Part shown: one piece after another, positions 5,959 to 45,069 of the stretch
Position numbering within the stretch: position 1 is the first letter of the stretch
Layout of the letters: every line of letters begins with the position of its first letter
Assembly: GCF_003018255.1 (NCBI RefSeq)
Contig: NZ_CP027440.1
Reading direction: 5' to 3' (one strand)
DNA length: 64,000 bases
Origin: Escherichia coli
GTDB lineage: Bacteria; Pseudomonadota; Gammaproteobacteria; Enterobacterales; Enterobacteriaceae
The notes under the pieces: model-generated
Databases searched by the model: none
What the model was told of the DNA's origin: nothing
Seen by the model: the letters and a program-made list of their open reading frames with translations, nothing else
Translations under genes and position numbers: made by a program

Positions 5959-6551
5959 TATTCATTCTCCTGAGAAAAATTCCGGGCCTGCGGCAATCCT
6001 TGCCAGCGCCTGGCGTGAGGATGTTCGAGGCCAAATTGATCCAGCACGCGGGCTACCACGTGGTGGACAATGTCATCTACCGTTTCGGGATGGTTATAAA
6101 AGGCAGGCATCGGCGGCACCATCGCCACGCCCATGCGCGAAAGTGCGAGCATATTTTCGAGATGGATTGTGCTAAGCGGCATTTCACGCGGCACCAGCAC
6201 CAGTTTGCGGCCTTCTTTGAGCACGACGTCCGCCGCGCGCCCCACCAGGCCATCGGCGTAACCAGCGCGGATACCGGCGAGCGTTTTCATACTGCATGGA
6301 ATAACGATCATGCCGTCGGTACGAAAGGAGCCGGAAGAGATAGTCGCCGCCTGATCCGCCGGGTTATGGCTGAAGTCTGCGAGGGCGGCAACATCGCGAG
6401 CGCTGTAAGGCGTTTCCAGTTCAATCGTGATTTTCGCCCACTTCGACATCACTAGATGAGTCTCGACATTCGGCATCTCCCGCAGCGCTTGCAGTAATGC
6501 CACACCAAGAGGCGCACCGGTAGCCCCTGTCATCCCGACGATCAGTTTCAT
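5958..6551 (-). CDS. ecdB: UbiX/Pad1-family flavin prenyltransferase (EcdB/KpdB-like)
   Basis: 197-aa ORF with MKLIVGMTGATGA flavoprotein motif; first gene of the three-gene minus-strand operon. Confidence 0.85.
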   Translation of the reverse strand: MKLIVGMTGATGAPLGVALLQALREMPNVETHLVMSKWAKITIELETPYSARDVAALADFSHNPADQAATISSGSFRTDGMIVIPCSMKTLAGIRAGYADGLVGRAADVVLKEGRKLVLVPREMPLSTIHLENMLALSRMGVAMVPPMPAFYNHPETVDDIVHHVVARVLDQFGLEHPHARRWQGLPQARNFSQENE

Positions 6552-16995: not shown

Positions 16996-17130
16996 AACCG
17001 TTCCTTTGCAATACCGCTATTTTCTTGCCATCAGATGTTTCGACTATAGGGAGCGTAAGAGAACGAATGAAATTACCAATTAGAATGAGTAGTTCCTTAA
17101 CGGAATAACGATTTGGCAAAGCTAATATCA
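16996..17130 (-). promoter_or_regulatory. cysDNC promoter region (expected CysB-activated)
   Basis: AT-rich region upstream of cysD; assignment rests on established cys regulon knowledge, and no precise sites were called. Confidence 0.35.
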
Positions 17131-17246
17131 AAAAGTGCTTAAGGCACCGGATTTCGGGCGTTTAGGAAGATTTGAAATTGTTTTAGCGCAGCGGCAGTTT
17201 CATACTATGACGGTAAAAAAATTTGCATGGTATTTAAGGACTCACT

Positions 17247-18284
17247 ATGTTTTCCGCATTGCGCCACCGTACCGCTGCCCTGGCGCTCGGCGTATGCTTT
17301 ATCCTCCCCGTACACGCCTCGTCACCTAAACCTGGCGATTTTGCTAATACCCAGGCACGACATATTGCTACTTTCTTTCCGGGACGCATGACCGGAACTC
17401 CTGCAGAAATGTTATCTGCCGATTATATTCGCCAACAGTTTCAGCAAATGGGTTATCGCAGTGATATTCGGACATTTAATAGTCGGTATATTTATACCGC
17501 CCGCGATAATCGCAAGAGCTGGCATAACGTGACGGGAAGTACGGTGATTGCCGCTCATGAAGGCAAAGCTCCGCAGCAGATCATCATTATGGCGCATCTG
17601 GATACTTACGCTCCGCTGAGCGATGCTGACGCCGATGCCAATCTCGGCGGGCTGACGTTACAAGGAATAGATGATAACGCCGCAGGTTTAGGTGTCATGC
17701 TGGAACTGGCAGAACGCCTGAAAAATACGCCTACCGAGTATGGTATTCGATTTGTGGCGACCAGTGGTGAAGAGGAAGGGAAATTAGGTGCTGAGAATTT
17801 ACTCAAGCGGATGAGTGACACCGAAAAGAAAAATACGCTGCTGGTGATTAATCTCGATAACTTAATTGTTGGCGATAAATTGTATTTCAATAGTGGTGTA
17901 AAAACCCCTGAAGCAGTAAGGAAATTAACGCGCGACAGGGCGCTGGCAATTGCGCGTAGTCATGGAATTGCCGCAACGACCAATCCGGGTTTGAATAAAA
18001 ATTATCCGAAAGGCACTGGGTGTTGTAATGACGCAGAAATATTCGACAAAGCCGGTATTGCTGTACTTTCGGTGGAAGCGACTAACTGGAATCTTGGGAA
18101 TAAGGATGGTTATCAGCAACGCGCAAAAACAGCCGCATTCCCTGCGGGAAATAGCTGGCATGACGTAAGACTGGATAATCAACAACATATTGATAAGGCG
18201 CTTCCTGGAAGAATAGAACGTCGCTGCCGTGATGTTATGCGGATAATGCTACCTCTGGTGAAGGAGTTGGCGAAGGCGTCTTGA
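17247..18284 (+). CDS. iap: alkaline phosphatase isozyme conversion aminopeptidase (M28 family)
   Basis: 345-aa ORF with signal peptide and M28 peptidase pattern; conserved position beside the CRISPR array. Confidence 0.9.
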   Translation: MFSALRHRTAALALGVCFILPVHASSPKPGDFANTQARHIATFFPGRMTGTPAEMLSADYIRQQFQQMGYRSDIRTFNSRYIYTARDNRKSWHNVTGSTVIAAHEGKAPQQIIIMAHLDTYAPLSDADADANLGGLTLQGIDDNAAGLGVMLELAERLKNTPTEYGIRFVATSGEEEGKLGAENLLKRMSDTEKKNTLLVINLDNLIVGDKLYFNSGVKTPEAVRKLTRDRALAIARSHGIAATTNPGLNKNYPKGTGCCNDAEIFDKAGIAVLSVEATNWNLGNKDGYQQRAKTAAFPAGNSWHDVRLDNQQHIDKALPGRIERRCRDVMRIMLPLVKELAKAS

Positions 18285-18304
18285 TGGGTTTGAAAATGGG
18301 AGTT

Positions 18305-19188
18305 GGGAGTTCTACCGCAGGGGCGGGGAATTCTAAGTGATATCCATCATCGCATCCAGTGCGCCCGGTTTATCCCCGCTGACGCGGGGAACACACATGA
18401 ATGTCGGTTCAGACCGTGTTTTTACCCGGTTTATCCCCGCTGGCGCGGGGAACACGAGGCTGAACAGGGAGGGGGCTACCGGCACAGCGGTTTATCCCCG
18501 CTGGCGCGGGGAACACTTGCCAACCGCCAAAGACTGGAAAACCAATCTCGGTTTATCCCCGCTGGCGCGGGGAACACTTAAACTTGCCGCCGGTATGGGG
18601 GGAACGGGCCGGTTTATCCCCGCTGGCGCGGGGAACTCGTTTCGCGTCGATCGCCTTTTGCGCAATCGCGCCGGTTTATCCCCGCTGGCGCGGGGAACTC
18701 TTTCTTTTTCCATTTAAGTTATTCTAATACCCCGGTTTATCCCCGCTGGCGCGGGGAACTCGATCATGCCTTACTAAAAGGTCCGCTGACGGGCGGTTTA
18801 TCCCCGCTGGCGCGGGGAACTCATCATGACAAAAAGTTACGCTCATCTATTCAACGGTTTATCCCCGCTGGCGCGGGGAACTCTCCATATGTTGCCCCGC
18901 TCGGGACAACACCCCCGGTTTATCCCCGCTGGCGCGGGGAACTCTTAGCGCCGACAAAAGAAGTTGCGGATAACAGCGGTTTATCCCCGCTGGCGCGGGG
19001 AACTCGCCCGTTCCCAGGGAGTGCGGCTCCACCCCCGCGGTTTATCCCCGCTGACGCGGGGAACTCTTCAGTTTCACACTCGGTAATGCCGTTATTTACG
19101 GTTTATCCCCGCTGGCGCGGGGAACTCCTCGGGGCCAGCCTCCCCCATTAACCCGGCACCGGTTTATCCCCGCTGGCGCGGGGAACTC
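18305..19188 (-). CRISPR. type I-E CRISPR array: 14 intact or near-intact 29-nt repeats plus one degenerate terminal repeat (18305-18333), 14 spacers
   Basis: Plus-strand repeat CGGTTTATCCCCGCTGGCGCGGGGAACTC at a 61-nt period (reverse complement of the canonical E. coli repeat GAGTTCCCCGCGCCAGCGGGGATAAACCG). Spacers are 32 nt, one is 33 nt. The four leader-distal repeats end in CAC rather than CTC. Confidence 0.98.
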
Positions 19189-19293
19189 TCTAAAAGTATA
19201 CATTTGTTCTTAAAGCATTTTTTCCCATAAAAACAACCCACCAACCTTAATGTAACATTTCCTTATTATTAAAGATCAGCTAATTCTTTGTTT
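19189..19293 (-). promoter_or_regulatory. CRISPR leader and promoter region
   Basis: AT-rich about 105 bp between the cas2 stop and the first repeat; shares motifs with the leader of the second array. Confidence 0.7.
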
Positions 19294-20497
<1,204 letters not shown>

Positions 20498-20512
20498 TTT
20501 ATTACACCTCAA

Positions 20513-21112
20513 TCACAGTGGAGCCAAAGATAGCAAGCCACATCCCATCGATTTAGCTGGCCCAATACCTTGCTGTACAAGATCTATTAACGCTGGCGCG
20601 TCGTTGATGGTGATCACCCCTTCAAAGCAAACCGTTTGGATCTTTCCACTTTTACCATCACCAGAAAAATACTGTGGCCGTTCCGATATGGGATGCACAT
20701 CTTCAACGCGCGCCGCATTGCCCAATTTACGTTGCAACCACGCGATTTGTTCTGCTTCTTTTATTAACGGAACCCGACAGCGTTTAATATTCCCTTTACT
20801 GTCCAGGCGCTTTTGATTGTCGAGAATAGTTTTGATCGGATTTGCCCGAAGCCGAAAATAGAGTGGAACACCAACCTGAAGTTGAAATTCAACCTGTTTA
20901 GTTTTAATGACTGTCGCAACGGCAGTAGAAACAGGCATTTGCGCTGACTGCAATAAAACATGACAGCCTTCTGGTGTGTTTCGCTTCTCAACATGAAAAA
21001 GAAAATCACGAGCAGCATCCGGTCTGTTTGGAAATAAATGCCATAATCCCTGGTGAAGTTGGTAAAGATCCCTGCTCCAGGCCCTGGCAATGATGACTTT
21101 ACTGAGATACAT
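20513..21112 (-). CDS. casE: Cas6e (CasE/Cse3) pre-crRNA endoribonuclease
   Basis: 199-aa ORF with N-terminus MYLSKVIIARAWSRDLYQLHQGLW; position in the operon. Confidence 0.95.
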   Translation of the reverse strand: MYLSKVIIARAWSRDLYQLHQGLWHLFPNRPDAARDFLFHVEKRNTPEGCHVLLQSAQMPVSTAVATVIKTKQVEFQLQVGVPLYFRLRANPIKTILDNQKRLDSKGNIKRCRVPLIKEAEQIAWLQRKLGNAARVEDVHPISERPQYFSGDGKSGKIQTVCFEGVITINDAPALIDLVQQGIGPAKSMGCGLLSLAPL

Positions 21113-21773
21113 CCATACCTCCTTTAATCACATACCATTCTCGGGAAGCAAATTGTCGAGGTAAGGTGATCATCGGTTCGTCGCGCACCGTAAATTTTAA
21201 ATGATGCCCGTCAACTGATTCCTCACTATAAATATCGCCGCCAACGGGCTCATAATTTAATAGCGCCTTCTGAGGATCCGACGCCTGACATGTCCCGAGA
21301 AAAAGCGGTTGTGTTAGCGGACAACTCCTCCGCCCCAGATACGGTGTATACCGAGGCTTTAATACTGCTTTTTCAAGTTCTGACATAACCATCGTTGCCT
21401 GTGGTGTTAACCAGATAGCGACGGTAAAGGAGGCATCACATAAATATTCGCGCCATGTTTGAATCGTTTCATGACTTTTCAAACCACGGTAATCTTCTCG
21501 CGCTCCAAGGACTGTATGGTAATCACGCAACCCCGTTACAGACACACGACGATCGTCAAGAATGAGTTCATCGCAGCGCACTGCAAATTGCACACTCTCT
21601 GATAACGCCTGTAATGAAGAAGTATCATCACGTTGGATCCCAAGACAAGCCCCGAGTAGCCCTAATAACCCGCTTCGGGTCGGAAATCTTCCGGTAGGTC
21701 GCGTTCCTTCAAAGGTCGGCTGCCCCCAGGCTTGCATTGGCCCAGCAAGCCGCAAGATCAAATAAGATCTCAT
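21099..21773 (-). CDS. casD: Cas5e (CasD) Cascade subunit
   Basis: Start at MRSYLILRLAGPMQAWGQ, giving 224 aa; 14-nt overlap with casE. Confidence 0.95.
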   Translation of the reverse strand: MRSYLILRLAGPMQAWGQPTFEGTRPTGRFPTRSGLLGLLGACLGIQRDDTSSLQALSESVQFAVRCDELILDDRRVSVTGLRDYHTVLGAREDYRGLKSHETIQTWREYLCDASFTVAIWLTPQATMVMSELEKAVLKPRYTPYLGRRSCPLTQPLFLGTCQASDPQKALLNYEPVGGDIYSEESVDGHHLKFTVRDEPMITLPRQFASREWYVIKGGMDVSQ

Positions 21774-21775
21774 GT

Positions 21776-22867
21776 TCACGCCTCGCCATTATTACGAACC
21801 CAGGATTTTAACTGTTCTAAAGTAGGCATTTGTTTAACTTGAGCAGTAATTGGGTCTACATCAGATAAGCTGAATTGCGCAGCAGCTCCGTTCAGACCAT
21901 ATCCATTGGCAACGCGATCCCAATATTGATTAAACGCCTGTATAGACGGTTGCAAAAAGCCATCTTTCGCTTTAACCGCTTTTTCAAAAGCATTTGCCAT
22001 AGAAAGTGGCATATCGGAGAAATTAACCATTACCATATCCGCAGGGTTAAAAGCGGCATAAGTACGCTGTTTTGCTCCAGGGACCTCTGTTGCCAGCATA
22101 TGAACAACATGGGTTGCAATTTCCAGAGCCTGCTCCCTGGAGGCACCACCTAAATTTTCCTGAAGTTGAGCGAGGTTAATGTTGGCATAACGATAAAAAA
22201 CACCCGATGAAAATTCCTGAGTTCCCAGATGTGCAGAACCTTGTTCCTGTAAATCATCTACAGCGGTGAACCAGTCAATATCAGAATCAACCTGATGAGT
22301 AGTGATCGCATGCGCAATGGACATTGCACCATCAACTTTTCCCAACTCACTCATCATGCCGCTGGTTGCCATTCTTCCACTAAGCGCAATATCAACACCC
22401 TGCTGTAAATTCACACGTATGGCGGCAATATCTTCCTTAAGAACTTTGAGCAGCTTTTTATCATCCAGATTATCAGCCTCTGCTTTTGCAACCTGCTCAC
22501 AGAACCAGGCTATTTCTCCCACAACCCAGGGAGTAACCGCATCGGCAGAAATCTTTTCGGCTTCATCAACTAATTTACCGGAGAGCAGCGCTAATGTCTT
22601 ATCGATGATTTTTTGGTCAAAACGTTCACCAAGTTTTTGCCGAAGAACATCACGTAATTGTGCAAGATGAATTGTTCTGAGACTGGATTCACCAATATTT
22701 TGTGCGTAATAATCACTTTTACGCATCGCATGTTTAAGGCTTTGACTTGAAATTCTTACTCGTCTTTTCCCGCCGAAAATAGCGTCTTTCTGCATGTTCA
22801 TATCGTCGCGGTTCAGACATGAAGGGCTGTGAGAGATCAGAACATGAATATTGATAAAGTTAGACAT
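21776..22867 (-). CDS. casC: Cas7e (CasC/Cse4) Cascade backbone subunit
   Basis: 363-aa ORF with N-terminus [24 protein letters not shown]. Confidence 0.95.
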
Positions 22868-22879
22868 AGAAAGGTTTCC

Positions 22880-23362
22880 TTACGCATTTTTGTTTGTGGT
22901 CAATACAAAATCTTCCAGAAGTTGCTGGCGTTCGCGCTTTCCCCACCAGGTCAACATCCTGGCCATTAATGGCCAGTCAAGTACGGGTTCGGCGTGAGTA
23001 AGTAATCGACGTAACTGGACCATATCGGCTGTTCTGTCAGCCCGAATTAATTGAAAGATACGGCGCTCGTTAATTCTTCCACTATTGGCTAAAGCTCTTC
23101 CCAACGAGATACCTGTTGTTTGCTCCGTTTTTTTGTCCTGATGTCGGATGACATTCTTTCCTGCGCTCAGGCAAAACACCATGCGCAAAAGAGCCTGCTG
23201 GTGACGTGGGTTTTCCCAACCAAAAGATTGCACCAGCCTATAAAACGCAGGGATATCGCGTAATTCATCAGGTTCTGAAACACGTCTAATTTGCGCACAT
23301 GCTCCATTATCCAGTTGTTGCCAGGCTCGATATAAAGCCATTGCATCAATTTCATCAGCCAT
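22880..23362 (-). CDS. casB: Cse2 (CasB) Cascade small subunit
   Basis: 160-aa ORF; 8-nt overlap with the casA 3' end. Confidence 0.95.
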   Translation of the reverse strand: MADEIDAMALYRAWQQLDNGACAQIRRVSEPDELRDIPAFYRLVQSFGWENPRHQQALLRMVFCLSAGKNVIRHQDKKTEQTTGISLGRALANSGRINERRIFQLIRADRTADMVQLRRLLTHAEPVLDWPLMARMLTWWGKRERQQLLEDFVLTTNKNA

Positions 23363-24863
23363 TTGATGGCCCTCCTTGAGGTTTTAACTCCCGTAAATGT
23401 TTGTATAGCGTGGCGCGGGCAAGCGCTAATGTGCTTATTAATTTAGGATGATGTGCATAGGGAGCTACAGATTGATTAAATAGCATTTCACACAATTGAT
23501 GAAGTTTGTCTCGTAAATCAGCTATTACCTCATCAGCTTGGGAAAAATTAATATTCGCCAATACATCGGGAATTAATAATTCACTCTGTCGATAGAAATG
23601 CCTTTCTGCAGTCTCATGAACAGAAACTCCGGCCCCTTTGAAGTCTTTATTTTTAAACCCTTCTGCAAAGGTATATAACGCCTTGCGTAAGGCTGTTTTA
23701 TATCCCAAACCAACAGTCACTATTTCGTTTATCACATTGCCGTATTGTTGCCACCCCTGATTAAACATCAACACATCATGACGCCGTTCAAGAATAGATG
23801 CTTGATTATTACGATATCCCCCCATAATCAATTCAAGAGGACTTTGCGGCGCAATATTTCTGAATTGATTCACAACCGCCGCCACGCGATTTCCATTTTC
23901 ATTTTGAATAATCTTATCTACCACAACTCGGCTGATTTGTGTCCATGATGGTGCGGAGGTGGTGAAAGCAAGAAATTTTTCCTCAACCTCCCCTTTCTTG
24001 ACTGTTACCAGACAAGGGGAATGCGGATGGGGCCATAGCCCATTAACTGTAAAGGTAAATTTTTCCTTAAGAAAACCGGTATAACGCAAATTGCTTTCCT
24101 GACCACAGCAAGAACATTTACCAATCCCAATGGGATCGCATAGTTCAATATGCGCTGGTTGCCAGAATAAACCACGGACAAACCCAATTGAAGAAGCAGG
24201 CACCGATTCATTCGGCTTGACAGGCTTAACCCAGGTAGGTTGGTTTTCCGTATGTAATTCATTGGGAAATTGTTTTTGAAGACGAGGTATTGTGAGGACA
24301 TTGAGTAATACCGTCGAGCGAAGATCGATCCCACATACGAAGGTGGTTATAGGTGTTCCTCCACGTAAACCGCTTTTAAAGCCACCACCAAAACCAGGTG
24401 CCTGATTCGCCTGGTTGAATAACGCAATCGCAGTGCATCCACCACATAATGCTTCACCCTGCCCCGGTTGATTGACAAATGCACAATTCGTCGCGCCGCT
24501 TACCCCAGCCAACAGTTTTTCCATTGGAGTCACATCATTTGCTTTGACACCTTTGGTCTGCATAAAGGGATGTTCTGCGTGATTAAGGTAGAACATATCT
24601 ATCCACGGCGCGATGAGTTGTTGAAACTCATCTTCAGTGAGCGGATTCATTATGCGATGTCGAAATTCAACGTCATCTTTTGCCGGGGCGATAATTTGCC
24701 CAATGCAAACCAGCAGTGCTAAAGTGGCCAGTTCCATATCGTCACGGGGCAAACTTAATCGCCACTGATCTCTACTGCAGTATAGCGATTGCAGATTTAT
24801 GATTTGGACTTTCCCCCCGTTTCGCGGGCGTACAGGGATCCAGTTATCAATAAGCAAATTCAT
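23355..24863 (-). CDS. casA: Cse1 (CasA) Cascade large subunit
   Basis: 502-aa ORF with N-terminus MNLLIDNWIPVRPRNGGKVQIINLQSLY. Confidence 0.95.
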   Translation of the reverse strand: MNLLIDNWIPVRPRNGGKVQIINLQSLYCSRDQWRLSLPRDDMELATLALLVCIGQIIAPAKDDVEFRHRIMNPLTEDEFQQLIAPWIDMFYLNHAEHPFMQTKGVKANDVTPMEKLLAGVSGATNCAFVNQPGQGEALCGGCTAIALFNQANQAPGFGGGFKSGLRGGTPITTFVCGIDLRSTVLLNVLTIPRLQKQFPNELHTENQPTWVKPVKPNESVPASSIGFVRGLFWQPAHIELCDPIGIGKCSCCGQESNLRYTGFLKEKFTFTVNGLWPHPHSPCLVTVKKGEVEEKFLAFTTSAPSWTQISRVVVDKIIQNENGNRVAAVVNQFRNIAPQSPLELIMGGYRNNQASILERRHDVLMFNQGWQQYGNVINEIVTVGLGYKTALRKALYTFAEGFKNKDFKGAGVSVHETAERHFYRQSELLIPDVLANINFSQADEVIADLRDKLHQLCEMLFNQSVAPYAHHPKLISTLALARATLYKHLRELKPQGGPSNG

Positions 24864-25205
24864 TTGTTCTCCTTCATATGCTCCGACATTTCTCCTGCAT
24901 TTCTATGCGTCGGCACACTTCCGTTATCGGTAAAAACAAAGAAAAAATACGGCGTAATTAATTCAATAATCACATTCACTGCAAAAATATATTCATTGGT
25001 TTAATACAATTAACCTATACATATATTAAGATGTGTTGAATTGTTTAAAGACAATAATGCATGCATTTCAAATCTGCAAGTTATTCGTTTTATTATCAAA
25101 GAAATTTTTAGTTATAATAATTACCATAAATTTTATTACATAAAATATTCATACTGTGAATATAAAATCTCATACCGGGAAATTAAAAGAAGATGTACAT
25201 TGTGC
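24864..25205 (-). promoter_or_regulatory. cas3-casA intergenic region holding the cascade operon promoter (Pcas); expected H-NS-bound AT-rich DNA
   Basis: About 340 bp of very AT-rich sequence upstream of casA; promoter and H-NS/LeuO control are taken from established knowledge of the E. coli I-E locus, and no exact -10/-35 was called. Confidence 0.55.
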
Positions 25206-25234
25206 ACTTTCCCTACTTAAGTAGGGATAAACCG
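25206..25234 (+). repeat. solitary degenerate CRISPR-repeat-like hairpin, sense on the plus strand (antisense to cas genes and arrays)
   Basis: ACTTTCCCTACTTAAGTAGGGATAAACCG against the canonical sense repeat GAGTTCCCCGCGCCAGCGGGGATAAACCG: same length, 19/29 identical, terminal GGGATAAACCG identical, 6-bp stem and 4-nt loop kept by compensatory changes. Confidence 0.6.
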
Positions 25235-25277
25235 TTATTGGTCTTGTTATCGTCATTGATACCAATCATTCCCGAAG

Positions 25278-27944
25278 TTATTTGGGATTTGCAGGGATGA
25301 CTCTGGTCATCCCTTCATCCCGAGTGTAGGTAATAACAATATTATTACCCTGCCAGATCCATCCATCCTGATTCTGTTTCCCTTCCAGCCAAAGTAACCC
25401 ATCTTCATCTACTACTTCAGAAAAATTACGTTTCCAGGTGAAGGGTACATTGACGCGATTAAGTGCTAACGCCTCATACTGCTGTTCATGACTTAGGTCC
25501 TCGTAGACCTGGCCATCGAGCAGTTGTTTACCTGAAGACGTTTGTAAATAAGGCAATAATGGCAGGCTCATTTCCCCATCCCTCGTTACCGCAAGAATTG
25601 TTTCATCGTTATCCTGCAAGCTATATTCTTCAGCCCACTGCAGAACCTTGCGAGCCTTGAACCTCTTTTCACACTCAGCGCTTTCAAACTTATCCATGCC
25701 TTTGATGACCCATTCTGGCTCATCCATTTCAGCATCATCGTAAATGCTATCCAGCCATTGCCGGTAGGCATCGGGGAAAAATAAGGATGCTCCATTAAGT
25801 TCCTCAATATGTTGCTGCGTCCGCCACATGACTCTAACGTTGCTATAAATATGCTCATGTCGTCCGTAACCTTCGCCATCAGGCAGCAAAACGGTGGCAA
25901 GAGGAACCTCAAAACCAGCGGGACGATATTTGCGATGATGGCGATGTAAACGGCCCAATCGTTGGAAAAGTAAATCTGCGGGGCAATGCTGAGTAATTAA
26001 CCAATCAAAATCAACGTCGAGTGATTGTTCCACGACCTGGGTGGCGACAAGTATCCGTCCAACATTTCGCTTCCCATTTTTGCCGAAATTGCTAATAACT
26101 CGATTCTCTTTTTCACGACGATCGTTCAGCGTAAAGCGCGCATGAAACAAATCTATATCTACTTGCGTGTTATTTAGTTCCTTTAACCGTTGGTGGCATA
26201 GCTGTGCAACATCAACCAAATTGCAGATAAGACAGACTTGTGCACCCGCATTTGCCGCTACGATCATTCGCTCTAACATCCTAAGGTCAGGTAACATGTC
26301 AGCTAAATAAATAGGTTCTGGCCGAATCGAAAAGCGGGGCGGGAGTTGTTCTGAATGAGCTAACAGATCAAAACGTTGTGCACCATTCACACCTCGCCAG
26401 TTAATGAGTGGATATGCGGAGTTATTTTCCTCTGGATCTGTATGCAGACCATAAGTATCCAGAAGTTTCTGTTTTTGTTTCATTGGTAGAGTTGCGGAAA
26501 GAAGAATAACACTCCCCCCCACATCAGCCTGAGCCTTGAGCACAGCCTCCAGCAAGCCGTTCATATACGTGTCGTAAGCATGAACTTCATCAACAATTAA
26601 AACACTTCGACCAATTCCCAAACCACGGATAAAGCGGTGTTTAACTGGCAATACCGATATCAACACCTGATCAATCGTGCAAACGCCGATTTGCCCAAGA
26701 AACACTTTCTTATTGCTTTGTGACAACCACTGACAACACTGAACCCATGCTTCTTCTTGCCCCTGCTCAGTAAATGCGCGTGATTTTATTGATTGAAAAA
26801 GGTGGTTAAAACGTGAATTACCATGAGCAAGAATAAGATTTGGGGAGGTAAATAAACGGCTCGCGTTCGCTTCCATTCTGCTGAGCATTGCATTTGCAGT
26901 AGCTTGTGTAGGGAGGGCAAAAATAACACTATCCGCAAGTTGTTGGTCAATAAGTTTCCAGGCATAGGCCAGCGCAGTTTCAGTTTTACCTGAACCCGTA
27001 GGTGCCTCTATTACCGTCAGCCCGGGCGCTACTGGAAGAGCATCAACTAACACTTGTAATTGTCTGGGTTGATAGCCATTGTCCAGTAGAGCATGAACAC
27101 CTTCATAACATCGCTTATTTGATACAAGGCCGCTCAACTCCAATACCCGGCTCGCATCCTGCTGTCGGTCCTGGAAATACGTTCTTAGAGCATTTATGTT
27201 GGAAGGTGCATCCTCTTTAAACAGAAAGGTATTCGTTGTAGTCCAGGAGCCTAACCAGTCAGCAAGCGAGCAAAAACCTGCTAACAGTGATGAACAATCA
27301 GGTGGTATATCGTTTATAGATAACCCGGCTGGCGTTAAAAATAATGCTTCGAGTACAGATATCCACTCCTCACGAGCCTGTTTATCTTGCGCAGCATAAG
27401 ATGCCAGAGAAGCTGGCATTTCCCAACGCGACTTATCTTGATCCTGGGAATGTAATATAAAACCATGATGTCCTGTAACAGCCTCTACCCATGGAAACCA
27501 GGACTCATAAGGATGAGGAGCGGCATCAAAAAAACTGAAAAAATCCCCGGGAGATTGCTCTGAAAGTGAATCCTGGTTAAACCAATACAGACCGGCTGCA
27601 CCATGATTAAATTTACGGCACATTTGTGTTGATGGACCATTAAGTGATGGCGTTGCAGGATTTAATTTCAGCCAACTTTCTGCTGATTTATATTGGAATC
27701 GTATATCAAACTTTCCGATATCATGAAGGGCAATGAAAAATAACAGCCAGGCTTTCACCTTCTGTTTTGATAGCATTTCATTTCGGCAAAAAGCATTTTG
27801 TAGTACGACTGATTGATCCCACCAGCAATCTGCAACAGCTGCAACATCCAGGCAATGATAAATCAACAGATGAATATCATTTCCTTTCGTCAGGCTTTTT
27901 GAGGATTTCCCCCAGTAATGACATATATATTTAAAAGGTTCCAT
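25278..27944 (-). CDS. cas3: Cas3 HD nuclease / SF2 helicase (type I signature protein)
   Basis: 888-aa ORF with HD-domain N-terminus (HCLDVAAVADCWW...) and helicase motifs (GSGKTE, DEVH). Confidence 0.95.
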   Translation of the reverse strand: MEPFKYICHYWGKSSKSLTKGNDIHLLIYHCLDVAAVADCWWDQSVVLQNAFCRNEMLSKQKVKAWLLFFIALHDIGKFDIRFQYKSAESWLKLNPATPSLNGPSTQMCRKFNHGAAGLYWFNQDSLSEQSPGDFFSFFDAAPHPYESWFPWVEAVTGHHGFILHSQDQDKSRWEMPASLASYAAQDKQAREEWISVLEALFLTPAGLSINDIPPDCSSLLAGFCSLADWLGSWTTTNTFLFKEDAPSNINALRTYFQDRQQDASRVLELSGLVSNKRCYEGVHALLDNGYQPRQLQVLVDALPVAPGLTVIEAPTGSGKTETALAYAWKLIDQQLADSVIFALPTQATANAMLSRMEANASRLFTSPNLILAHGNSRFNHLFQSIKSRAFTEQGQEEAWVQCCQWLSQSNKKVFLGQIGVCTIDQVLISVLPVKHRFIRGLGIGRSVLIVDEVHAYDTYMNGLLEAVLKAQADVGGSVILLSATLPMKQKQKLLDTYGLHTDPEENNSAYPLINWRGVNGAQRFDLLAHSEQLPPRFSIRPEPIYLADMLPDLRMLERMIVAANAGAQVCLICNLVDVAQLCHQRLKELNNTQVDIDLFHARFTLNDRREKENRVISNFGKNGKRNVGRILVATQVVEQSLDVDFDWLITQHCPADLLFQRLGRLHRHHRKYRPAGFEVPLATVLLPDGEGYGRHEHIYSNVRVMWRTQQHIEELNGASLFFPDAYRQWLDSIYDDAEMDEPEWVIKGMDKFESAECEKRFKARKVLQWAEEYSLQDNDETILAVTRDGEMSLPLLPYLQTSSGKQLLDGQVYEDLSHEQQYEALALNRVNVPFTWKRNFSEVVDEDGLLWLEGKQNQDGWIWQGNNIVITYTRDEGMTRVIPANPK

Positions 27945-28246
27945 TAATAGCCTCCCTGTTTTTTTAGTATTATCGATGATATCAGTGGACTATTTTTCGA
28001 TGCTGCTCATAAATATCGAATTACAGTGATATACACATGTCTTGCCTCCCTGCAAAGAAGAGACTAACATTCGAATTGCTTAGGTTCGAACGCAGGCCTC
28101 AGGTTGATAGAAATATCGCCTGGGGCTTTTGTCCATCTGGAACCTCGCGAATGCTTAACGCCAGACAGCCTCAAGCACCCAACTCCATTCTATACCTGTT
28201 AATTCTCCCTGCGATGTTCACCTTTAAATGCCGGAATGCTGCTCGC

Positions 28247-28283
28247 AAAATAAAAACGCCCCCATCATTTCTGACAGAGGCGT
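28247..28283 (-). terminator. cysH (cysJIH operon) intrinsic terminator
   Basis: On the minus strand, stem ACGCCUC/GGGGCGU followed by UUUUUAUUUU, about 20 nt downstream of the cysH stop. Confidence 0.6.
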
Positions 28284-28302
28284 TTAATTTATCCGGCAAT
28301 AT

Positions 28303-29037
28303 TTACCCTTCGTGTAACCCACATTCCCTTTTTAAGCCAAAGAAACGCGTTTCTTCTTCCGCCATGCCGGGTTCCCATTTACGGGTTGTATGGGTATCAC
28401 CGACCGATAAATATCCTTCGTCCCATAATGGGTGATATTTCAGGCCATGTTTTTGCAGGTACTGATAAATAGTTCGGTTATCCCAGTCGATAATCGGCAG
28501 CACTTTAAATACGCCACGCTGAATTGCCAGCACCGGTAAATTGGCGCGGCTGCCGGATTGTTCACGGCGCAGGCCAGCAAACCAGGTTTGCGCATTCAGT
28601 TCTTTCAGCGCCCGGTTCATCGGTTCGACTTTGTTGATCTCGTTGTACTTCTCAATCCCCTCAACACCCTGCTCCCACAGTTTACCGTAGCGCGCTTCCT
28701 GCCAGGCGGCGCTTTCGGTAGCGCGGTACACTTTCAGGTTGAGCTTGAGTTTGTCCGTTAACTCGTCAATAAAGCGGTAGGTTTCTGGGAACAGATAGCC
28801 GGTATCGGTGAGGATCACCGGAATATCCGGGCGAATCTGATTCACCAGATGCAGGCTCACCGCCGCCTGAATGCCAAAGCTGGAAGAAAGTACATATTCA
28901 CCGGGCAGATTATCCAGCGCCCAGGCAACGCGGCCTTCAGCGTCCAGTTTTTCCAGTTCGGCGTTAGTTTCCGCCAGCGCCAGAATGCGATCTACCTTCG
29001 GCAGTTCGTTCAGGGCGTTTAGATCGAGTTTGGACAT
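28303..29037 (-). CDS. cysH: phosphoadenosine phosphosulfate (PAPS) reductase
   Basis: Start at [14 protein letters not shown], giving 244 aa; C-terminal ECGLH motif. Confidence 0.95.
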
Positions 29038-29058
29038 AGATTCCTCACTGTTTGCCTT

Positions 29059-29094
29059 GCCTGATGCGACGCTCACGCGTCTTATCAGGCCTAC
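29059..29094. repeat. REP (repetitive extragenic palindromic) element between cysH and cysI
   Basis: GCCTGATGCGACGCTCACGCGTCTTATCAGGCCTAC matches the enterobacterial REP consensus. Confidence 0.8.
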
Positions 29095-29110
29095 AAGACC
29101 GGGCTAATGG

Positions 29111-30823
29111 TTAATCCCACAAATCGCGCGCCGGATCGAGCACCGGGCGAATGATGCCCGCACGCACCGTAAAGTCGCCGAAGCCTTCACCCGCTTCGCG
29201 CTCTTTCGCCCAGCGCCCTATCAGTTCATCAAGCGACGCCAGGATTTCCGGCTCGGTGATGTTTTCTTTATACATCCGTGGGATACGTGTCCCAATGCGG
29301 TTGCCGCCAAGATGCAAGTTGTAGCGACCTGGCGCTTTACCCACCAGGCCCACTTCCGCCAGCATCGCGCGACCACAACCGTTCGGGCAGCCTGTTACAC
29401 GCATCACGATATGCTCATCGCTGACACCATGTTTCGCCATTAAATTATCGATGTTGTCGATAAAAGACGGCAGGAAACGCTCGGCTTCGGCCATCGCCAG
29501 CGGGCAAGTCGGGAATGACACGCAGGCCATTGAGTTTTCACGCTGCGGCGTGACGGCATTCATTAACCCGCTCTCTTTGGCGATCTTCTCGATCTTCGCT
29601 TTCTCGCTTTCCGGCACACCGGCGATGATCAGATTCTGGTTCGCCGTAATGCGGAAATCGCCTTTGTGGATCTTCGCGATCTCCAGCAGGCCGGTTTTCA
29701 GCGGACGCCCAGGATAATCAAGGATGCGACCATTTTCGATAAACAGCGTCAGATGCCAGTTATCATCAATGCCCTTAACCCAGCCAATACGATCGCCGCG
29801 TCCGGTAAACTCATACGGACGGATCGGTTCAAATTTGATCCCCGCGCGACGCTCCACTTCCGCTTTAAACGTCTCAACCCCCACGCGCTCCAGCGTGTAT
29901 TTGGTTTTGGCATTTTTACGATCGGTTCGGTTACCCCAGTCACGCTGAGTTGTCACGACGGCTTCCGCCACTGCCAACGTATGCTCCAGCGGCAGATAGC
30001 CAAACTCACTCGCGGTGCGGGCGTAGGTTTTCTTGTTGCCGTGTTCGGTGGAAAGCCCACCGCCCACCAACAGGTTAAAGCCCACCAGCTTGCCGTTTTC
30101 GGCGATTGCCACGAAGTTCATGTCGTTGGCGTGCAGATCGATATCGTTCTGCGGCGGGATCACTACCGTGGTTTTGAACTTACGCGGCAGGTAGGTCTGA
30201 CCAAGGATCGGCTCTTCATCAGTAGTGGCGACTTTTTCCTGATCGAGCCAGATCTCCGCATACGCGCGGGTACGAGGCAGCAGATGTTCAGAGATTTTCT
30301 TCGCCCATTCATATGCTTCCGCGTGCAGTTGCGACTCGTAAGGGTTCGAGGTGCAGAGTACGTTACGGTTCATGTCGTTAGCAGTCGCCAGCGCATCAAG
30401 GCCGACCGAGTGCAGCATCTGGTGCACCGGTTTGACGTTCTTTTTCAGAATGCCGTGGAACTGAAACGTCTGGCGGTTGGTCAGGCGAATGCTGCCATAG
30501 ATGGTGTTTTCACCGGCAAATTTGTCTATCGCCTGCCACTGTTTGGTGGTGATCACGCCACCCGGCAGACGGCAGCGCAACAGCATCGCGTGGCGCGGCT
30601 CCAGCTTCTGTTCAGCACGTTCGGCGCGGATGTCGCGGTCATCCTGCTGATACATGCCGTGGAAGCGGATCAGCAGGAAGTTGTCGCCCTTAAAGCCGCC
30701 GGTCAGACCGTCGTTTAAATCTTCCGCAATGGTGCCGCGCAGGTAGTTGCTTTCAAGCTTCATGCGCTCGGCGTCTGTCAGTTTTCCTTCGACCACTAAA
30801 GGCCCTGGATGTTTTTCGCTCAT
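29111..30823 (-). CDS. cysI: sulfite reductase hemoprotein beta subunit
   Basis: 570-aa ORF with N-terminus [22 protein letters not shown]. Confidence 0.95.
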
Positions 30824-44132: not shown

Positions 44133-44271
44133 ACATACCTGAATGGTTATCCCCGCTGACGCGGGGAACATAAGTTCGACAACTTAAAAAATGATAACAA
44201 GTCCGGTTTATCCCCGCTGATGCAGGGAACATAATAAAAACTTTAACTAGTTCGGTTTATCCCTGTTTTTA
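44133..44271 (-). CRISPR. degenerate CRISPR remnant: three decayed repeats with AT-rich spacer-length intervals
   Basis: GGTTATCCCCGCTGACGCGGGGAACA, CGGTTTATCCCCGCTGATGCAGGGAACAT and CGGTTTATCCCTGTTTTTACAAGGAATAT at about 60-nt spacing, just downstream of ygcE. Confidence 0.8.
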
Positions 44272-44735
44272 CAAGGAATATTAACTACACTCGATGTCTT
44301 TAGAATAAAAGACAATACGAATCGTACTTTATCAATTTTCATTTAAAGTATGAACTGGATATCTTTATTCATAAGAACAATTCATCAACAGCGTATAGAG
44401 GCGGTTATGTAAAACCGCTCATTAGCCTCAAAACAAAGACAAATTTCCAGATTTATTACTTAATCAATGAATAACAAGCTTAAAAAATACACTGTAATTC
44501 TAAAGAAAAAATTAACAGGCATTAATTCAATATTAAAAAAATAATAGATTAAAATTTCTTAACGATTTAAGTATCATACAAATAACACTTTGATTAAATT
44601 TAATTTTTTGTATCGATAATTGTGAACTTCTCTGGCATGGAGAACTATTTTGAACATGAGGTGTTACGTGGATATGTTGCTTATTACAAGTACAGCTAAT
44701 ATAAAAACTTGAGAAAGAGATAACGGGTTATATGG

Positions 44736-45069
44736 TGGTTTATCCCCGCAGGCGCGGGGAACTCATAGAGAAAAGAAACGGCAGCTTTGCCACTTCCGGT
44801 TTATCCCCGCTGGCGCGGGGAACTCCGCGTTTCTAATCTCACCGCCACGGCGATCAACGGTTTATCCCCGCTGGCGCGGGGAACTCACCCCTTTAACGTC
44901 ACCAGACCGCTAACGACGCGGTTTATCCCCGCTGGCGCGGGGAACTCGCGTAACCATTTTGATGGCGCTACCGAAATGGCGGTTTATCCCCGCTGGCGCG
45001 GGGAACTCGATCAACGGCCTGGCGGCTGCCTCTGAAATCTCGGTTTATCCCCGCTGGCGCGGGGAACTC
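44736..45069 (-). CRISPR. orphan type I-E CRISPR array: 6 repeats, 5 spacers of 32 nt
   Basis: Same repeat as the cas-adjacent array at a 61-nt period; the leader-distal repeat is a variant (TGGTTTATCCCCGCAGGCGCGGGGAACTC). Confidence 0.97.

What the first reader, a model, noticed from the sequence alone, without database searches (positions are those of the whole stretch)
25206..25234. Solitary CRISPR-repeat-like hairpin in the cas3-casA intergenic region, antisense to the cas operon
The plus strand carries ACTTTCCCTACTTAAGTAGGGATAAACCG, which aligns with the crRNA-sense I-E repeat GAGTTCCCCGCGCCAGCGGGGATAAACCG. Length is identical at 29 nt, the 3' eleven bases GGGATAAACCG (stem base plus the 8-nt crRNA 5' handle) are identical, and the Cas6e-type hairpin (6-bp stem, 4-nt loop) is kept by compensatory substitutions (CCCCGC/GCGGGG becomes CCCTAC/GTAGGG). 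Compensatory change points to selection on RNA structure rather than decay of an old repeat. Both arrays are sense on the minus strand, so this element is inverted relative to them and would sit in a transcript antisense to cas3/casA. No convincing second repeat follows it. Hypotheses: a Cas6e- or Cascade-binding regulatory RNA (comparable in concept to repeat-like cas-regulating RNAs reported in other CRISPR types), or a fossil of an inverted array. I could not identify a target for the 32 nt that follow (TTATTGGTCTTGTTATCGTCATTGATACCAAT).
Basis: partly seen in the sequence, partly recalled or inferred. Interest (0 to 1): 0.7.

Follow-up and report, generated by a model that had tools for sequence, protein, structure and literature searches.

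The report
Self-regulating mini-CRISPR beside E. coli cas3
The hairpin is the first repeat of a degenerate two-repeat mini-CRISPR whose guide-like RNA most likely steers the cell's own Cascade complex onto the cas operon promoter to hold Cas production in check; this class of element, and very probably this E. coli copy, was already predicted in 2023.

Summary
The 29-nt sequence is at 25206-25234 (+) as described, but it is not solitary and it does have a target. A second repeat-like hairpin of the same geometry lies 60 nt downstream (25266-25294), across the cas3 stop codon. This gives a psiR1-psiS-psiR2 mini-array antisense to cas3. The best match to the 31-nt psiS in the whole 64-kb window lies 154 nt upstream in the same intergenic region. 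It has a canonical AAG PAM and a perfect seed. Mismatches are at positions 6, 9, 12 and 18; positions 6, 12 and 18 do not pair in Cascade. Shuffles reach this score in 1 of 200,000 trials. Five other lineages (Xenorhabdus x2, Pokkaliibacter, Marinomonas, one metagenome; CasA 57-72% identical) have the same layout. Their guides differ, yet each matches an AAG-flanked site upstream of its own casA. The hairpins are kept by double-sided changes. The site overlaps the -35 of Pcas (start inferred near 25045) and the -35 of a plus-strand promoter that fits the published 150-200 nt anti-Pcas RNA. This is a CreR-type Cas-autoregulating RNA. Shmakov et al. 2023 predicted it for the E. coli I-E locus, and Liu et al. 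2023 validated a Salmonella I-E analogue with E. coli Cascade. It is real and functional-looking, but already known. I found no experimental test of the native E. coli copy.

The parts
25206..25234 (+). psiR1, the first repeat-like unit: 7-bp stem TCCCTAC/GTAGGGA (25210-25227), loop TTAA, and an exact 8-nt crRNA 5' handle ATAAACCG (25227-25234)
   Evidence: The hairpin forms in the MFE fold of the putative transcript. Stem, loop and handle are invariant in 8 E. coli alleles.
25235..25265 (+). psiS, the 31-nt spacer-like guide TTATTGGTCTTGTTATCGTCATTGATACCAA
   Evidence: Within E. coli it varies only at position 12 (non-pairing) and position 28 (PAM-distal).
25266..25294 (+). psiR2, a degenerate second repeat with hairpin TCCCGAA-GTTA-TTTGGGA (25270-25287). 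The loop holds the cas3 stop codon (25278-25280, minus strand), and the 3' arm is the last cas3 codons (N-P-K).
   Evidence: The non-coding 5' arm varies between lineages but stays complementary.
25078..25080 (+). AAG, the canonical type I-E PAM of the predicted target. Its complement CTT overlaps the -35 hexamer of the cas-sense promoter.
   Evidence: Invariant in 8 E. coli alleles.
25081..25112 (+). Protospacer-like target (non-target strand shown). Positions 1-17 (25081-25097) match psiS except at 6, 9 and 12. PAM-distal positions do not match.
   Evidence: rank 1 of about 128,000 positions; shuffle P = 5e-6 and 0/100,000.
25051..25079 (-). Inferred Pcas core promoter: -35 TTGCAG (25079-25074), 17-nt spacer, -10 TATTGT (25056-25051), transcription start near 25045 +/- 2
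   Evidence: The layout is conserved relative to the PAM in four lineages. The start is placed by mapping published LBS II (-116..-101) and LBS I (+40..+55) positions onto the TATTCAT..AAT motifs at 25146 and 24990. This is an inference, not a measurement.
25090..25118 (+). Candidate promoter of the mini-array (anti-Pcas): -35 TTATTA/TTATCA (25090-25098, inside the protospacer), perfect -10 TATAAT (25113-25118), start near 25125
   Evidence: consensus scans only. Fits the published 150-200 nt anti-Pcas RNA.
25293..25314 (+). 9-bp hairpin AGGGATGAC-TCTG-GTCATCCCT inside the last cas3 codons; a possible 3' end or stabiliser of the roughly 190-nt antisense RNA
   Evidence: Kept by codon swaps in other lineages. 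Its role is not established.
25145..25163 (.). Palindrome ATATTCA-N5-TGAATAT, inferred to be LeuO/LrhA binding site II. It lies between the mini-array promoter and psiR1.

Best explanation
This is a CreR-type (Cas-regulating RNA) mini-CRISPR.

Proposed mechanism. A plus-strand promoter in the cas3-casA intergenic region (the published anti-Pcas; -10 TATAAT at 25113-25118) makes a roughly 190-nt RNA. This RNA runs through psiR1, psiS and psiR2 into the end of cas3. Cas6e binds the psiR1 hairpin and cuts at its 3' base, leaving the normal AUAAACCG handle. The 3' end comes from cleavage at the psiR2 hairpin or from trimming. The resulting crRNA-like RNA of about 60 nt (25227-25286) is loaded into Cascade. 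Guided by the AAG PAM (25078-25080) and pairing over about 17 PAM-proximal nucleotides, Cascade binds 25081-25112. The PAM-distal half cannot pair, so the R-loop is incomplete, Cas3 is not recruited, and the chromosome is not cut. The bound complex covers about -33 to -67 of Pcas, including its -35, and also the -35 of the mini-array's own promoter. It therefore represses casABCDE-cas1-cas2 and itself. The loop should relax when Cascade is titrated by abundant crRNAs or blocked by anti-CRISPRs.

Shown here: the anatomy, the statistics, the conservation and the guide-target covariation. Taken from the literature: the antisense transcript; that PAM plus seed is enough for Cascade binding and partial matches do not cause interference; and repression by a Salmonella I-E CreR using E. 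coli Cascade. Inferred: processing, loading, and which promoter is repressed in E. coli.
For: 1. Mini-array anatomy. There is an exact 8-nt handle, and two hairpins of canonical 7-bp/4-nt geometry lie 60 nt apart. They are two of only three such hairpins outside the arrays in 64 kb.

2. Target. The best psiS match in the window has AAG, seed 7/7 and 14/15 pairing positions. A shuffled psiS gives AAG plus a perfect seed in the 342-bp region with P=0.0015, and a score at least as high as observed with P=5e-6.

3. Covariation. In E. coli, metagenome L083, X. ehlersii L085, X. bovienii L089, Pokkaliibacter L091 and Marinomonas L003, the top non-self hit of each psiS in its 5.5-7.6 kb locus is on the same strand. 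It lies 84-154 nt upstream, is AAG-flanked and seed-perfect, and is mismatched at positions 6 and 12. The guide sequences differ between lineages. Each lineage gives P<=1.2e-4.

4. Hairpins. 76 of 77 cells pair and 14 cells have changes on both sides. No shuffle of 500 reaches either value, and slid controls pair at 32-64%.

5. Constraint within E. coli. The region is present at >95% identity in about 1,100 of 5,426 complete genomes. Across 8 alleles the 89-nt array varies only at psiR1 position 3, psiS position 12 and psiS position 28. PAM, seed, handle and stems are invariant in loci with intact cas genes.

6. Promoter context. The PAM complement runs into a -35-like hexamer with a -10 at 16-17 nt in four lineages. 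A Pcas start near 25045 follows from the published LBS positions.

7. Literature. Shmakov 2023 predicted a mini-array in the E. coli I-E locus with an AAG target at the H-NS site upstream of Pcas, transcribed opposite to cas3. Liu 2023 showed 8.6-fold repression by a Salmonella I-E CreR with E. coli MG1655 Cascade. The anti-Pcas RNA is 150-200 nt. AAG plus seed is sufficient for Cascade binding in vivo, and partial matches give no interference or priming.
Against: In K-12 both promoters are silenced by H-NS.

Cooper et al. argue that partial R-loops bind unstably, and that promoter occlusion drops sharply with PAM-distal mismatches. Repression could therefore be weak.

The E. coli pairing has an extra mismatch at position 9.

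psiR2 is very degenerate and its 3' arm is also constrained by cas3 coding, so Cas6e cleavage there is uncertain. In the MFE fold psiR2 is not a simple hairpin.

The element is dispensable in evolution. Relatives with short or no cas3-casA gap lack it (L004, L084, L086-L088, L090). A K-12-type Salmonella locus has a decayed psiR1 and no PAM-flanked target.

Promoter assignments rest on consensus scans in AT-rich DNA and on indirect mapping. The hairpin cores used were picked with a hairpin finder, which inflates the percentage paired.
Confidence: 0.8

Rival explanations
1. A Cascade-independent antisense RNA. The anti-Pcas transcript acts only by base-pairing with, or by transcriptional interference at, the 3' end of cas3 (the original proposal of Pul et al.). 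On this view the repeat-like features are incidental.
For: The RNA overlaps the last 35-40 nt of cas3 and its stop codon. A 2023 review records this as the suggested role. A strong hairpin conserved by codon swaps lies in this overlap.
Against: It does not explain the exact Cas6e handle, the canonical hairpin geometry, the AAG-flanked seed match, or the guide-target covariation in six lineages. It could coexist with the CreR role.
Confidence: 0.08
2. A fossil of an old inverted CRISPR array or an ectopic repeat insertion that is decaying neutrally and has no function.
For: psiR2 is highly degenerate. Identity of psiR1 to the repeat is only 19/29. The Salmonella K-12-type copy does look decayed. 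Many relatives lack the element.
Against: The unit persists across lineages whose CasA proteins are only 57-72% identical. Stems change but stay paired, and the handle is identical in five of six lineages (ATAATCCG in X. bovienii). Neutral decay would not keep an AAG-flanked seed match at the promoter in six lineages with different guides. E. coli polymorphisms avoid the stems, handle, seed and PAM.
Confidence: 0.06
3. A CreTA-like addiction module. The guide represses a toxin gene, so that loss or inhibition of Cascade kills or arrests the cell.
For: In Xenorhabdus, Pokkaliibacter and Marinomonas a conserved hydrophobic peptide gene of about 38-46 aa lies between the targeted promoter and casA. 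CreA/CreT pairs are known in I-B and I-F systems.
Against: The E. coli window has no homologue of that peptide. The peptide also occurs in Citrobacter, which has no mini-array. It matches no known toxin or defence family. Toxicity is untested. RNA toxins cannot be excluded by sequence.
Confidence: 0.04
4. An intrinsic terminator or mRNA 3' stabiliser for cas3, read on the minus strand.
For: psiR1 is a perfect palindrome, so it also folds on the cas3-sense strand, 44 nt after the stop codon.
Against: No T-run follows it on the minus strand (AAAGTGCA), and the terminator scan reports nothing there. A terminator would not need the ATAAACCG handle on the opposite strand, a second hairpin at the array period, or a PAM-flanked match.
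Confidence: 0.02

Closest known systems
Mini-array of 'the E. coli I-E locus' predicted by Shmakov et al. 2023 (PMC10120712, section 22 and Fig. 4B)
   Same: It lies between cas3 and cas8e/casA and is transcribed opposite to cas3. The upstream repeat is well preserved and the downstream one degraded. The target has an AAG PAM at the H-NS site just upstream of Pcas, with sixth-position mismatches. The mini-array start region lies at the LeuO/CRP sites. All of this matches what I find.
   Different: It is very probably the same element. I could not see their figure or supplements to compare sequences. They made no experimental test for E. coli and do not use the name anti-Pcas. The window allele differs from K-12 at psiR1 position 3, psiS positions 12 and 28, and target positions 17 and 25.
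Salmonella enterica I-E CreR (Liu et al. 2023, bioRxiv 10.1101/2023.03.10.532045)
   Same: It is a type I-E degenerate mini-CRISPR. psiR1 keeps the 5'-handle nucleotides and psiR2 keeps the 3'-handle part. It has an AAG PAM, a match of about 15 nt, and a target upstream of casA. It works with E. coli MG1655 Cascade. It has no associated toxin.
   Different: The guide is unrelated (it starts with TAG). Its target is about 140 bp upstream of casA, against 215 bp here. It comes from a different I-E sub-lineage. It is experimentally validated, and the E. coli element is not.
CreA of CreTA modules (Haloarcula I-B; also I-F)
   Same: It is a degenerate mini-CRISPR RNA that turns Cascade into a repressor through a partial, PAM-proximal match without cleavage.
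   Different: CreA's defining target is a toxin promoter. No toxin is evident in the E. coli region.
anti-Pcas transcript of E. coli K-12 (Pul et al. 2010, seen through reviews PMC7074321 and PMC10011333)
   Same: It is a plus-strand, H-NS-repressed RNA of 150-200 nt that starts in this intergenic region and overlaps the 3' end of cas3. That fits a start near 25125 and an end near 25314.
   Different: It was described as a structured RNA of unknown role. The identification with the pre-CreR is my inference, and I could not read the primary paper.
Racr and solitary repeat units of phages
   Same: These are repeat mimics that bind Cas proteins. This is what a truly solitary hairpin would resemble.
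   Different: They are carried by phages or plasmids and act by sequestration. This element is chromosomal, has a guide and a target, and has no phage or plasmid copies.
tracr-L (II-A) and scaRNA (II-B)
   Same: They show the same logic: a natural guide with a partial match makes the effector repress a promoter, including its own.
   Different: They use Cas9 effectors and a different RNA architecture.

Membership tests
CreR / regulatory mini-array (crRNA-like RNA) | Lies inside the cas locus but outside the CRISPR array, in a long intergenic region | tested here: met
   It is in the 414-bp cas3-casA gap, and the arrays are 6 kb and 19 kb away.
CreR / regulatory mini-array (crRNA-like RNA) | Two repeat-like units flank one spacer-like sequence; psiR1 keeps the 5'-handle nucleotides and psiR2 keeps the hairpin | tested here: met
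   psiR1 has the exact ATAAACCG handle. The psiR2 hairpin is TCCCGAA/TTTGGGA. The period is 60 nt against 61 nt in the arrays.
CreR / regulatory mini-array (crRNA-like RNA) | The spacer has a partial, PAM-proximal match (at least 10 nt) to a site with the cognate PAM at or next to a cas promoter | tested here: met
   AAG, seed 7/7 and 14/15 pairing positions, with shuffle P=5e-6. The site is at about -33 to -67 of the inferred Pcas.
CreR / regulatory mini-array (crRNA-like RNA) | Conserved in related loci, with guide and target changing together | tested here: met
   Six lineages show this. Hairpin covariation is shown.
CreR / regulatory mini-array (crRNA-like RNA) | Transcribed on the strand that gives the crRNA sense | not testable with these tools
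   The literature reports the anti-Pcas RNA on this strand. Promoter-like sites are found.
CreR / regulatory mini-array (crRNA-like RNA) | Processed by Cas6e and loaded into Cascade | not testable with these tools
   This is inferred from the intact handle and the lower stem. A prophage-borne I-E mimic (Cracr) array was shown to mature in a Cas-dependent way.
CreR / regulatory mini-array (crRNA-like RNA) | Cascade-dependent repression of the targeted promoter without DNA cleavage | not testable with these tools
   This was shown for the Salmonella CreR with E. coli Cascade. Partial matches give no interference.
CreTA (toxin-antitoxin form) | A toxin gene sits under the targeted promoter | tested here: inconclusive
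   No conserved ORF or homologue of the relatives' small peptide is found in E. coli. An RNA toxin cannot be excluded.
Canonical CRISPR array | Near-identical repeats, a leader that supports spacer acquisition, and spacer turnover between strains | tested here: not met
   The repeats are 19/29 identical to the consensus or worse. The single psiS is the same, apart from two point changes, in the 8 alleles compared, and the region is more than 95% identical in about 1,100 genomes. Shmakov et al. report no IHF site.
Intrinsic terminator of cas3 | A GC-rich hairpin followed by a T-run on the cas3-sense strand | tested here: not met
   The scan finds none, and the tail is AAAGTGCA.
Any Rfam family | A match to a curated covariance model | tested here: not met
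   There was no hit at 25050-25320 even at E<=1.

The most novel reading that the evidence does not exclude
In this Cas3/CasA clade the CreR-controlled promoter may originally have driven a small membrane peptide gene together with the Cascade operon. That would make it a type I-E CreTA-like safeguard in which blocking Cascade releases a toxic or abortive-infection peptide. E. coli would then have lost the peptide and kept only the regulator. In E. coli, one Cascade-CreR complex would sit on both back-to-back promoters, making the long-unexplained anti-Pcas RNA a self-limiting sensor of free Cascade.
Probability: 0.1. Interest if true: 0.6.

Novelty: already known. Interest (0 to 1): 0.3.

Why it matters
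E. coli K-12 is the reference organism for type I-E CRISPR. Its cas operon is usually described as controlled by H-NS, LeuO, CRP and related proteins. An RNA-guided autorepression loop built into the locus would add a layer that senses free Cascade, crRNA load and anti-CRISPR attack. It would also give a function to the anti-Pcas RNA, which reviews still list as unexplained.

There is a practical consequence. Many engineered strains replace cas3 and this intergenic region with a constitutive promoter, which removes the loop. Experiments in strains with the native region carry an extra guide that competes for Cascade.

The concept and the E. coli prediction are already published, so what this work adds is modest. 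It supplies independent statistics, six-lineage guide-target covariation, and an inferred placement of the site on the -35 elements of both promoters.

Tried and rejected
1. Rfam, at E<=1 over 17000-30000, found nothing at the element. It found only a sok-like RNA near 28100 and weak chance hits.

2. Plain identity to the repeat (19/29) is not significant on its own, so I used motif and geometry tests instead.

Only the two Marinomonas loci were useful. CasA homologues and their contigs gave the informative lineages.

4. Phage and plasmid collections hold no copy or mimic of the mini-array at blastn sensitivity.

5. Pul 2010 and Westra 2010 are not held, and the Shmakov supplements are not held. 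The Pcas start therefore had to be inferred indirectly.

6. O157:H7 carries the other I-E variant with cas3 deleted and no remnant of a mini-array, so it is uninformative. I did not examine a complete copy of that variant.

7. A 35-aa ORF overlapping the mini-array (25194-25301, +) has no counterpart start codon in L083 (read by eye), so I judged it probably spurious.

8. Consensus promoter scans in this AT-rich region give many weak candidates on both strands. I kept only those supported by cross-lineage layout or by the published transcript size.

9. The small peptide found in relatives matches no NCBIfam or PADLOC family and has one database homologue.

10. Cooper et al.'s ChIP-seq strains are cas3 deletions with the other cas genes expressed constitutively. 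They probably lack this region, so they give no direct evidence.

Full report
**1. The observation**

The window carries a type I-E cas operon on the minus strand. cas3 is 25278-27944 and casA is 23355-24863. casB-E, cas1 and cas2 follow, then a 14-repeat array at 18366-19188. A second array lies at 44736-45069. Both arrays read in crRNA sense on the minus strand.

The reported 29-mer ACTTTCCCTACTTAAGTAGGGATAAACCG is at 25206-25234 on the plus strand. Its identity to the repeat is only 19/29, which several chance sites in the window also reach. What is unusual is the detail. GGGATAAACCG occurs once on the plus strand, and all 21 other copies are array repeats. It is preceded by a stem-loop of the canonical geometry, with two compensated base pairs.

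**2.

- The hairpin is not solitary. TCCCGAA-GTTA-TTTGGGA lies at 25270-25287, 60 nt after the first hairpin, against an array period of 61 nt. It is in the register of a second repeat (25266-25294). Its loop contains the cas3 stop codon, and its 3' arm is the last cas3 codons. Outside the arrays the whole 64 kb holds only three hairpins of this type. Two of them are this pair.
- The 31 nt between the hairpins do have a target. I scored every position on both strands, ignoring every sixth base because those bases are flipped out in Cascade. The best non-self site is 25081-25098, 154 nt upstream in the same intergenic region. It is preceded by AAG, the canonical I-E PAM. The seed is perfect, and mismatches fall at positions 6, 9, 12 and 18.
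- A shuffled psiS finds an AAG-flanked perfect seed in the 342-bp region in 0.15% of trials. It reaches the observed score in 1 of 200,000 trials.

**3. Comparative evidence**

The K-12-type intergenic region is present at more than 95% identity in about 1,100 of 5,426 complete E. coli genomes. It is unannotated in every record inspected. Among eight alleles, 23 of 457 columns vary. Within the 89-nt mini-array only three positions vary:

- psiR1 position 3, which lies outside the stem;
- psiS position 12, which does not pair;
- psiS position 28, which is PAM-distal.

The PAM is invariant. The single change at a target seed position is in a strain whose cas3 is a pseudogene.

This Cas3 is phylogenetically isolated, so I used CasA homologues and their contigs to find informative relatives. 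Loci with a long cas3-casA gap all carry an antisense psiR1-psiS-psiR2 unit abutting the end of cas3. These are metagenome L083, Xenorhabdus ehlersii L085, X. bovienii L089, Pokkaliibacter L091 and Marinomonas shanghaiensis L003.

Their guides differ, for example TTATTGGTCTT, TTATTTTGTAT, TTACTGTGTAT and TCTGTTTTTTA. In every case the top non-self hit of the guide in the whole 5.5-7.6 kb locus has the same properties, with no PAM imposed in the scan:

- it is on the same strand;
- it lies 84-154 nt upstream;
- it is flanked by AAG;
- it has a perfect seed;
- it is mismatched at positions 6 and 12.

Each lineage gives P<=1.2e-4 by shuffling. Loci with a short or absent gap lack the unit (L004, L084, L086-L088, L090). 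A K-12-type Salmonella locus (L082) has a broken psiR1 and no PAM-flanked target, so the element can be lost.

Across eleven hairpin cores, 76 of 77 cells pair and 14 cells have changes on both sides. No shuffle of 500 reaches either value, and slid controls pair at 32-64%. One caveat applies: the cores were chosen with a hairpin finder, which inflates the percentage paired.

**4. Promoter context**

When the loci are anchored on the PAM, the cas-sense strand shows the same layout in four lineages. The complement of the PAM runs into a -35-like hexamer (cTTGCAG, cTTGAAT). A TATTGT or TATTAT -10 follows after 16-17 nt.

For E. coli this predicts -35 at 25079-25074, -10 at 25056-25051, and a transcription start near 25044-25046.

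Published data give an independent check. The LrhA study places LeuO/LrhA site II mutations at -116/-114/-102/-101 in a palindrome, and site I mutations at +40/+42/+54/+55 in a nearly identical motif. The window has TATTCAT...AAT motifs at 25146 and 24990, 156 bp apart. The first lies within the palindrome ATATTCA-N5-TGAATAT at 25145-25163. Mapping the published positions onto these motifs puts the start at 25045 +/- 2.

On this placement the Cascade site spans about -33 to -67 of Pcas and overlaps its -35. This agrees with Shmakov et al., who put the target at the H-NS site immediately upstream of Pcas.

On the plus strand, the protospacer contains the -35 (25090-25098) of a promoter-like site with a perfect TATAAT at 25113-25118. 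A start near 25125 and an end at the 9-bp hairpin 25293-25314 would give an RNA of about 190 nt. That matches the 150-200 nt anti-Pcas RNA of Pul et al. as reported in two reviews, one of which still calls its role unknown.

**5. Mechanism**

The best-supported reading is a CreR-type autoregulatory guide.

- The antisense RNA is processed at psiR1, and at psiR2 or by trimming.
- It is loaded into Cascade, which binds the AAG-flanked site by about 17 nt of PAM-proximal pairing.
- This represses Pcas, and probably the mini-array's own promoter, without recruiting Cas3.

Three published results support individual steps. AAG plus a seed match is enough for Cascade binding in vivo, and partial matches cause neither interference nor priming. 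A Salmonella I-E CreR with a 15-nt match repressed its casA promoter 8.6-fold using native E. coli MG1655 Cascade, and the repression was relieved by over-expressing crRNAs. A prophage-borne I-E mimic (Cracr) array that matches Salmonella CreR elements matures in a Cas-dependent way, with 3' trimming.

Processing, loading and repression by the native E. coli element are inferred, not shown. The main counter-argument is that partial R-loops may be too unstable for strong repression.

**6. Rival readings**

- A purely antisense role against cas3 does not explain the handle, the PAM or the covariation.
- A decaying fossil array is contradicted by the conservation and by the constraint pattern within E. 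coli.
- A cas3 terminator lacks a T-run.
- A CreTA-like toxin module has no candidate toxin in E. coli.

**7. Comparison with what is known, and novelty**

Shmakov et al. 2023 describe a mini-array for 'the E. coli I-E locus'. It lies between cas3 and cas8e, is transcribed opposite to cas3, and has a degraded distal repeat. Its target has an AAG PAM, shows sixth-position mismatches, and overlaps the H-NS site upstream of Pcas. Its start region lies at the LeuO/CRP sites. This is very probably the same element, although I could not view their figure or supplements. They tested an I-F1 example, not the E. coli one.

Liu et al. named the class CreR and validated a Salmonella I-E member in E. coli cells, without mentioning the host's own copy. 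Later papers I could search do not test the native E. coli element.

The finding is therefore real and biologically meaningful but already known as a prediction.

- quantitative support for the target;
- six-lineage guide-target covariation;
- the overlap of psiR2 with the cas3 stop codon;
- an inferred placement on the -35 elements of both back-to-back promoters;
- an explicit link to the anti-Pcas RNA.

**8. Verdict**

The regulatory-RNA interpretation is supported. Novelty is 'already known'. Interest is 0.3.

Noticed in passing
L085 1853-1969; L089 about 1848-1988; L091 1858-1983; L003 5356-5472; L086 about 1899-1979 (all cas-sense strand): A small hydrophobic peptide gene (about 26-46 aa, motif ..SPMGI..L.V.LAL.L) lies between the CreR-targeted promoter and casA in Xenorhabdus, Pokkaliibacter and Marinomonas. 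It also occurs in Citrobacter, which has no mini-array. It matches no NCBIfam or PADLOC family and has one database homologue (a hypothetical protein). It is absent from the E. coli window. It could be a leader peptide or a CreT-like cargo gene.
   Followed up: partly
window 25293-25314 (also L083, L084, L086, L089, L003 at the end of cas3): A 9-bp hairpin inside the last cas3 codons is kept by codon swaps: G-M-T-x-V-I-P with GGGATGAC/GTCATCCC, against G-M-V-x-T-I-P with GGGATGGT/ACCATCCC. It is present in loci with a gap after cas3, including ones without a mini-array, and absent where cas3 overlaps casA. This suggests selection on nucleic-acid structure at the 3' end of cas3.
   Followed up: partly
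window 28024-28180 (-): There is a strong Rfam match to the sok antitoxin RNA (104 bits, E=2.6e-23) between cas3 and cysH. This indicates a hok/sok-type toxin-antitoxin locus next to the cas operon.
   Followed up: no
window 44143-44281 (-): Three degenerate repeat copies (23/29, 24/29 and 18/29; two keep GGGATAAACCG) lie about 450 bp from the second array. They form a small decayed array in the same orientation as the main arrays.
   Followed up: no
L093 (E. coli 13C1065T) and L092 (E. coli RM9872-C1), aligned to window 25052-25087: Two strains with pseudogenised cas genes carry changes at otherwise invariant functional positions. One has target seed position 7 changed G>T together with a truncated cas3. 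The other has two changes in the inferred Pcas -10 together with a truncated casA. This fits relaxed constraint once the system is broken, but it is anecdotal.
   Followed up: partly
L082 (Salmonella enterica, K-12-type I-E locus), cas3-casA gap 1600-2000: This locus keeps the psiR2 hairpin, but psiR1 is broken (handle GTAAACCA, stem not paired). Its spacer-like stretch has no PAM-flanked match. It looks like a decayed copy of the mini-array.
   Followed up: partly
window 24860-24979 (-): A 39-codon GTG-initiated ORF in the inferred casA 5' leader ends in TGA overlapping the casA ATG (ATGA). It is not homologous to the small peptides of the relatives. Its conservation and translation were not tested.
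   Followed up: no
L098 (E. coli O157:H7 strain 9234), 6251-6500: This strain carries the other E. coli I-E variant with cas3 deleted. casA lies 250 bp from cysH, with only a fragment of a hypothetical gene between them and no repeat-like unit.
   Followed up: partly
window 25078-25112, compared with K-12 (L001): The window is not K-12. Its intergenic region and cysH are 100% identical to strain JNE23-011. Relative to K-12, psiS position 12 and target position 17 differ, so the two alleles pair slightly differently: K-12 matches at position 12 but not at 17, and the window does the reverse.
   Followed up: yes
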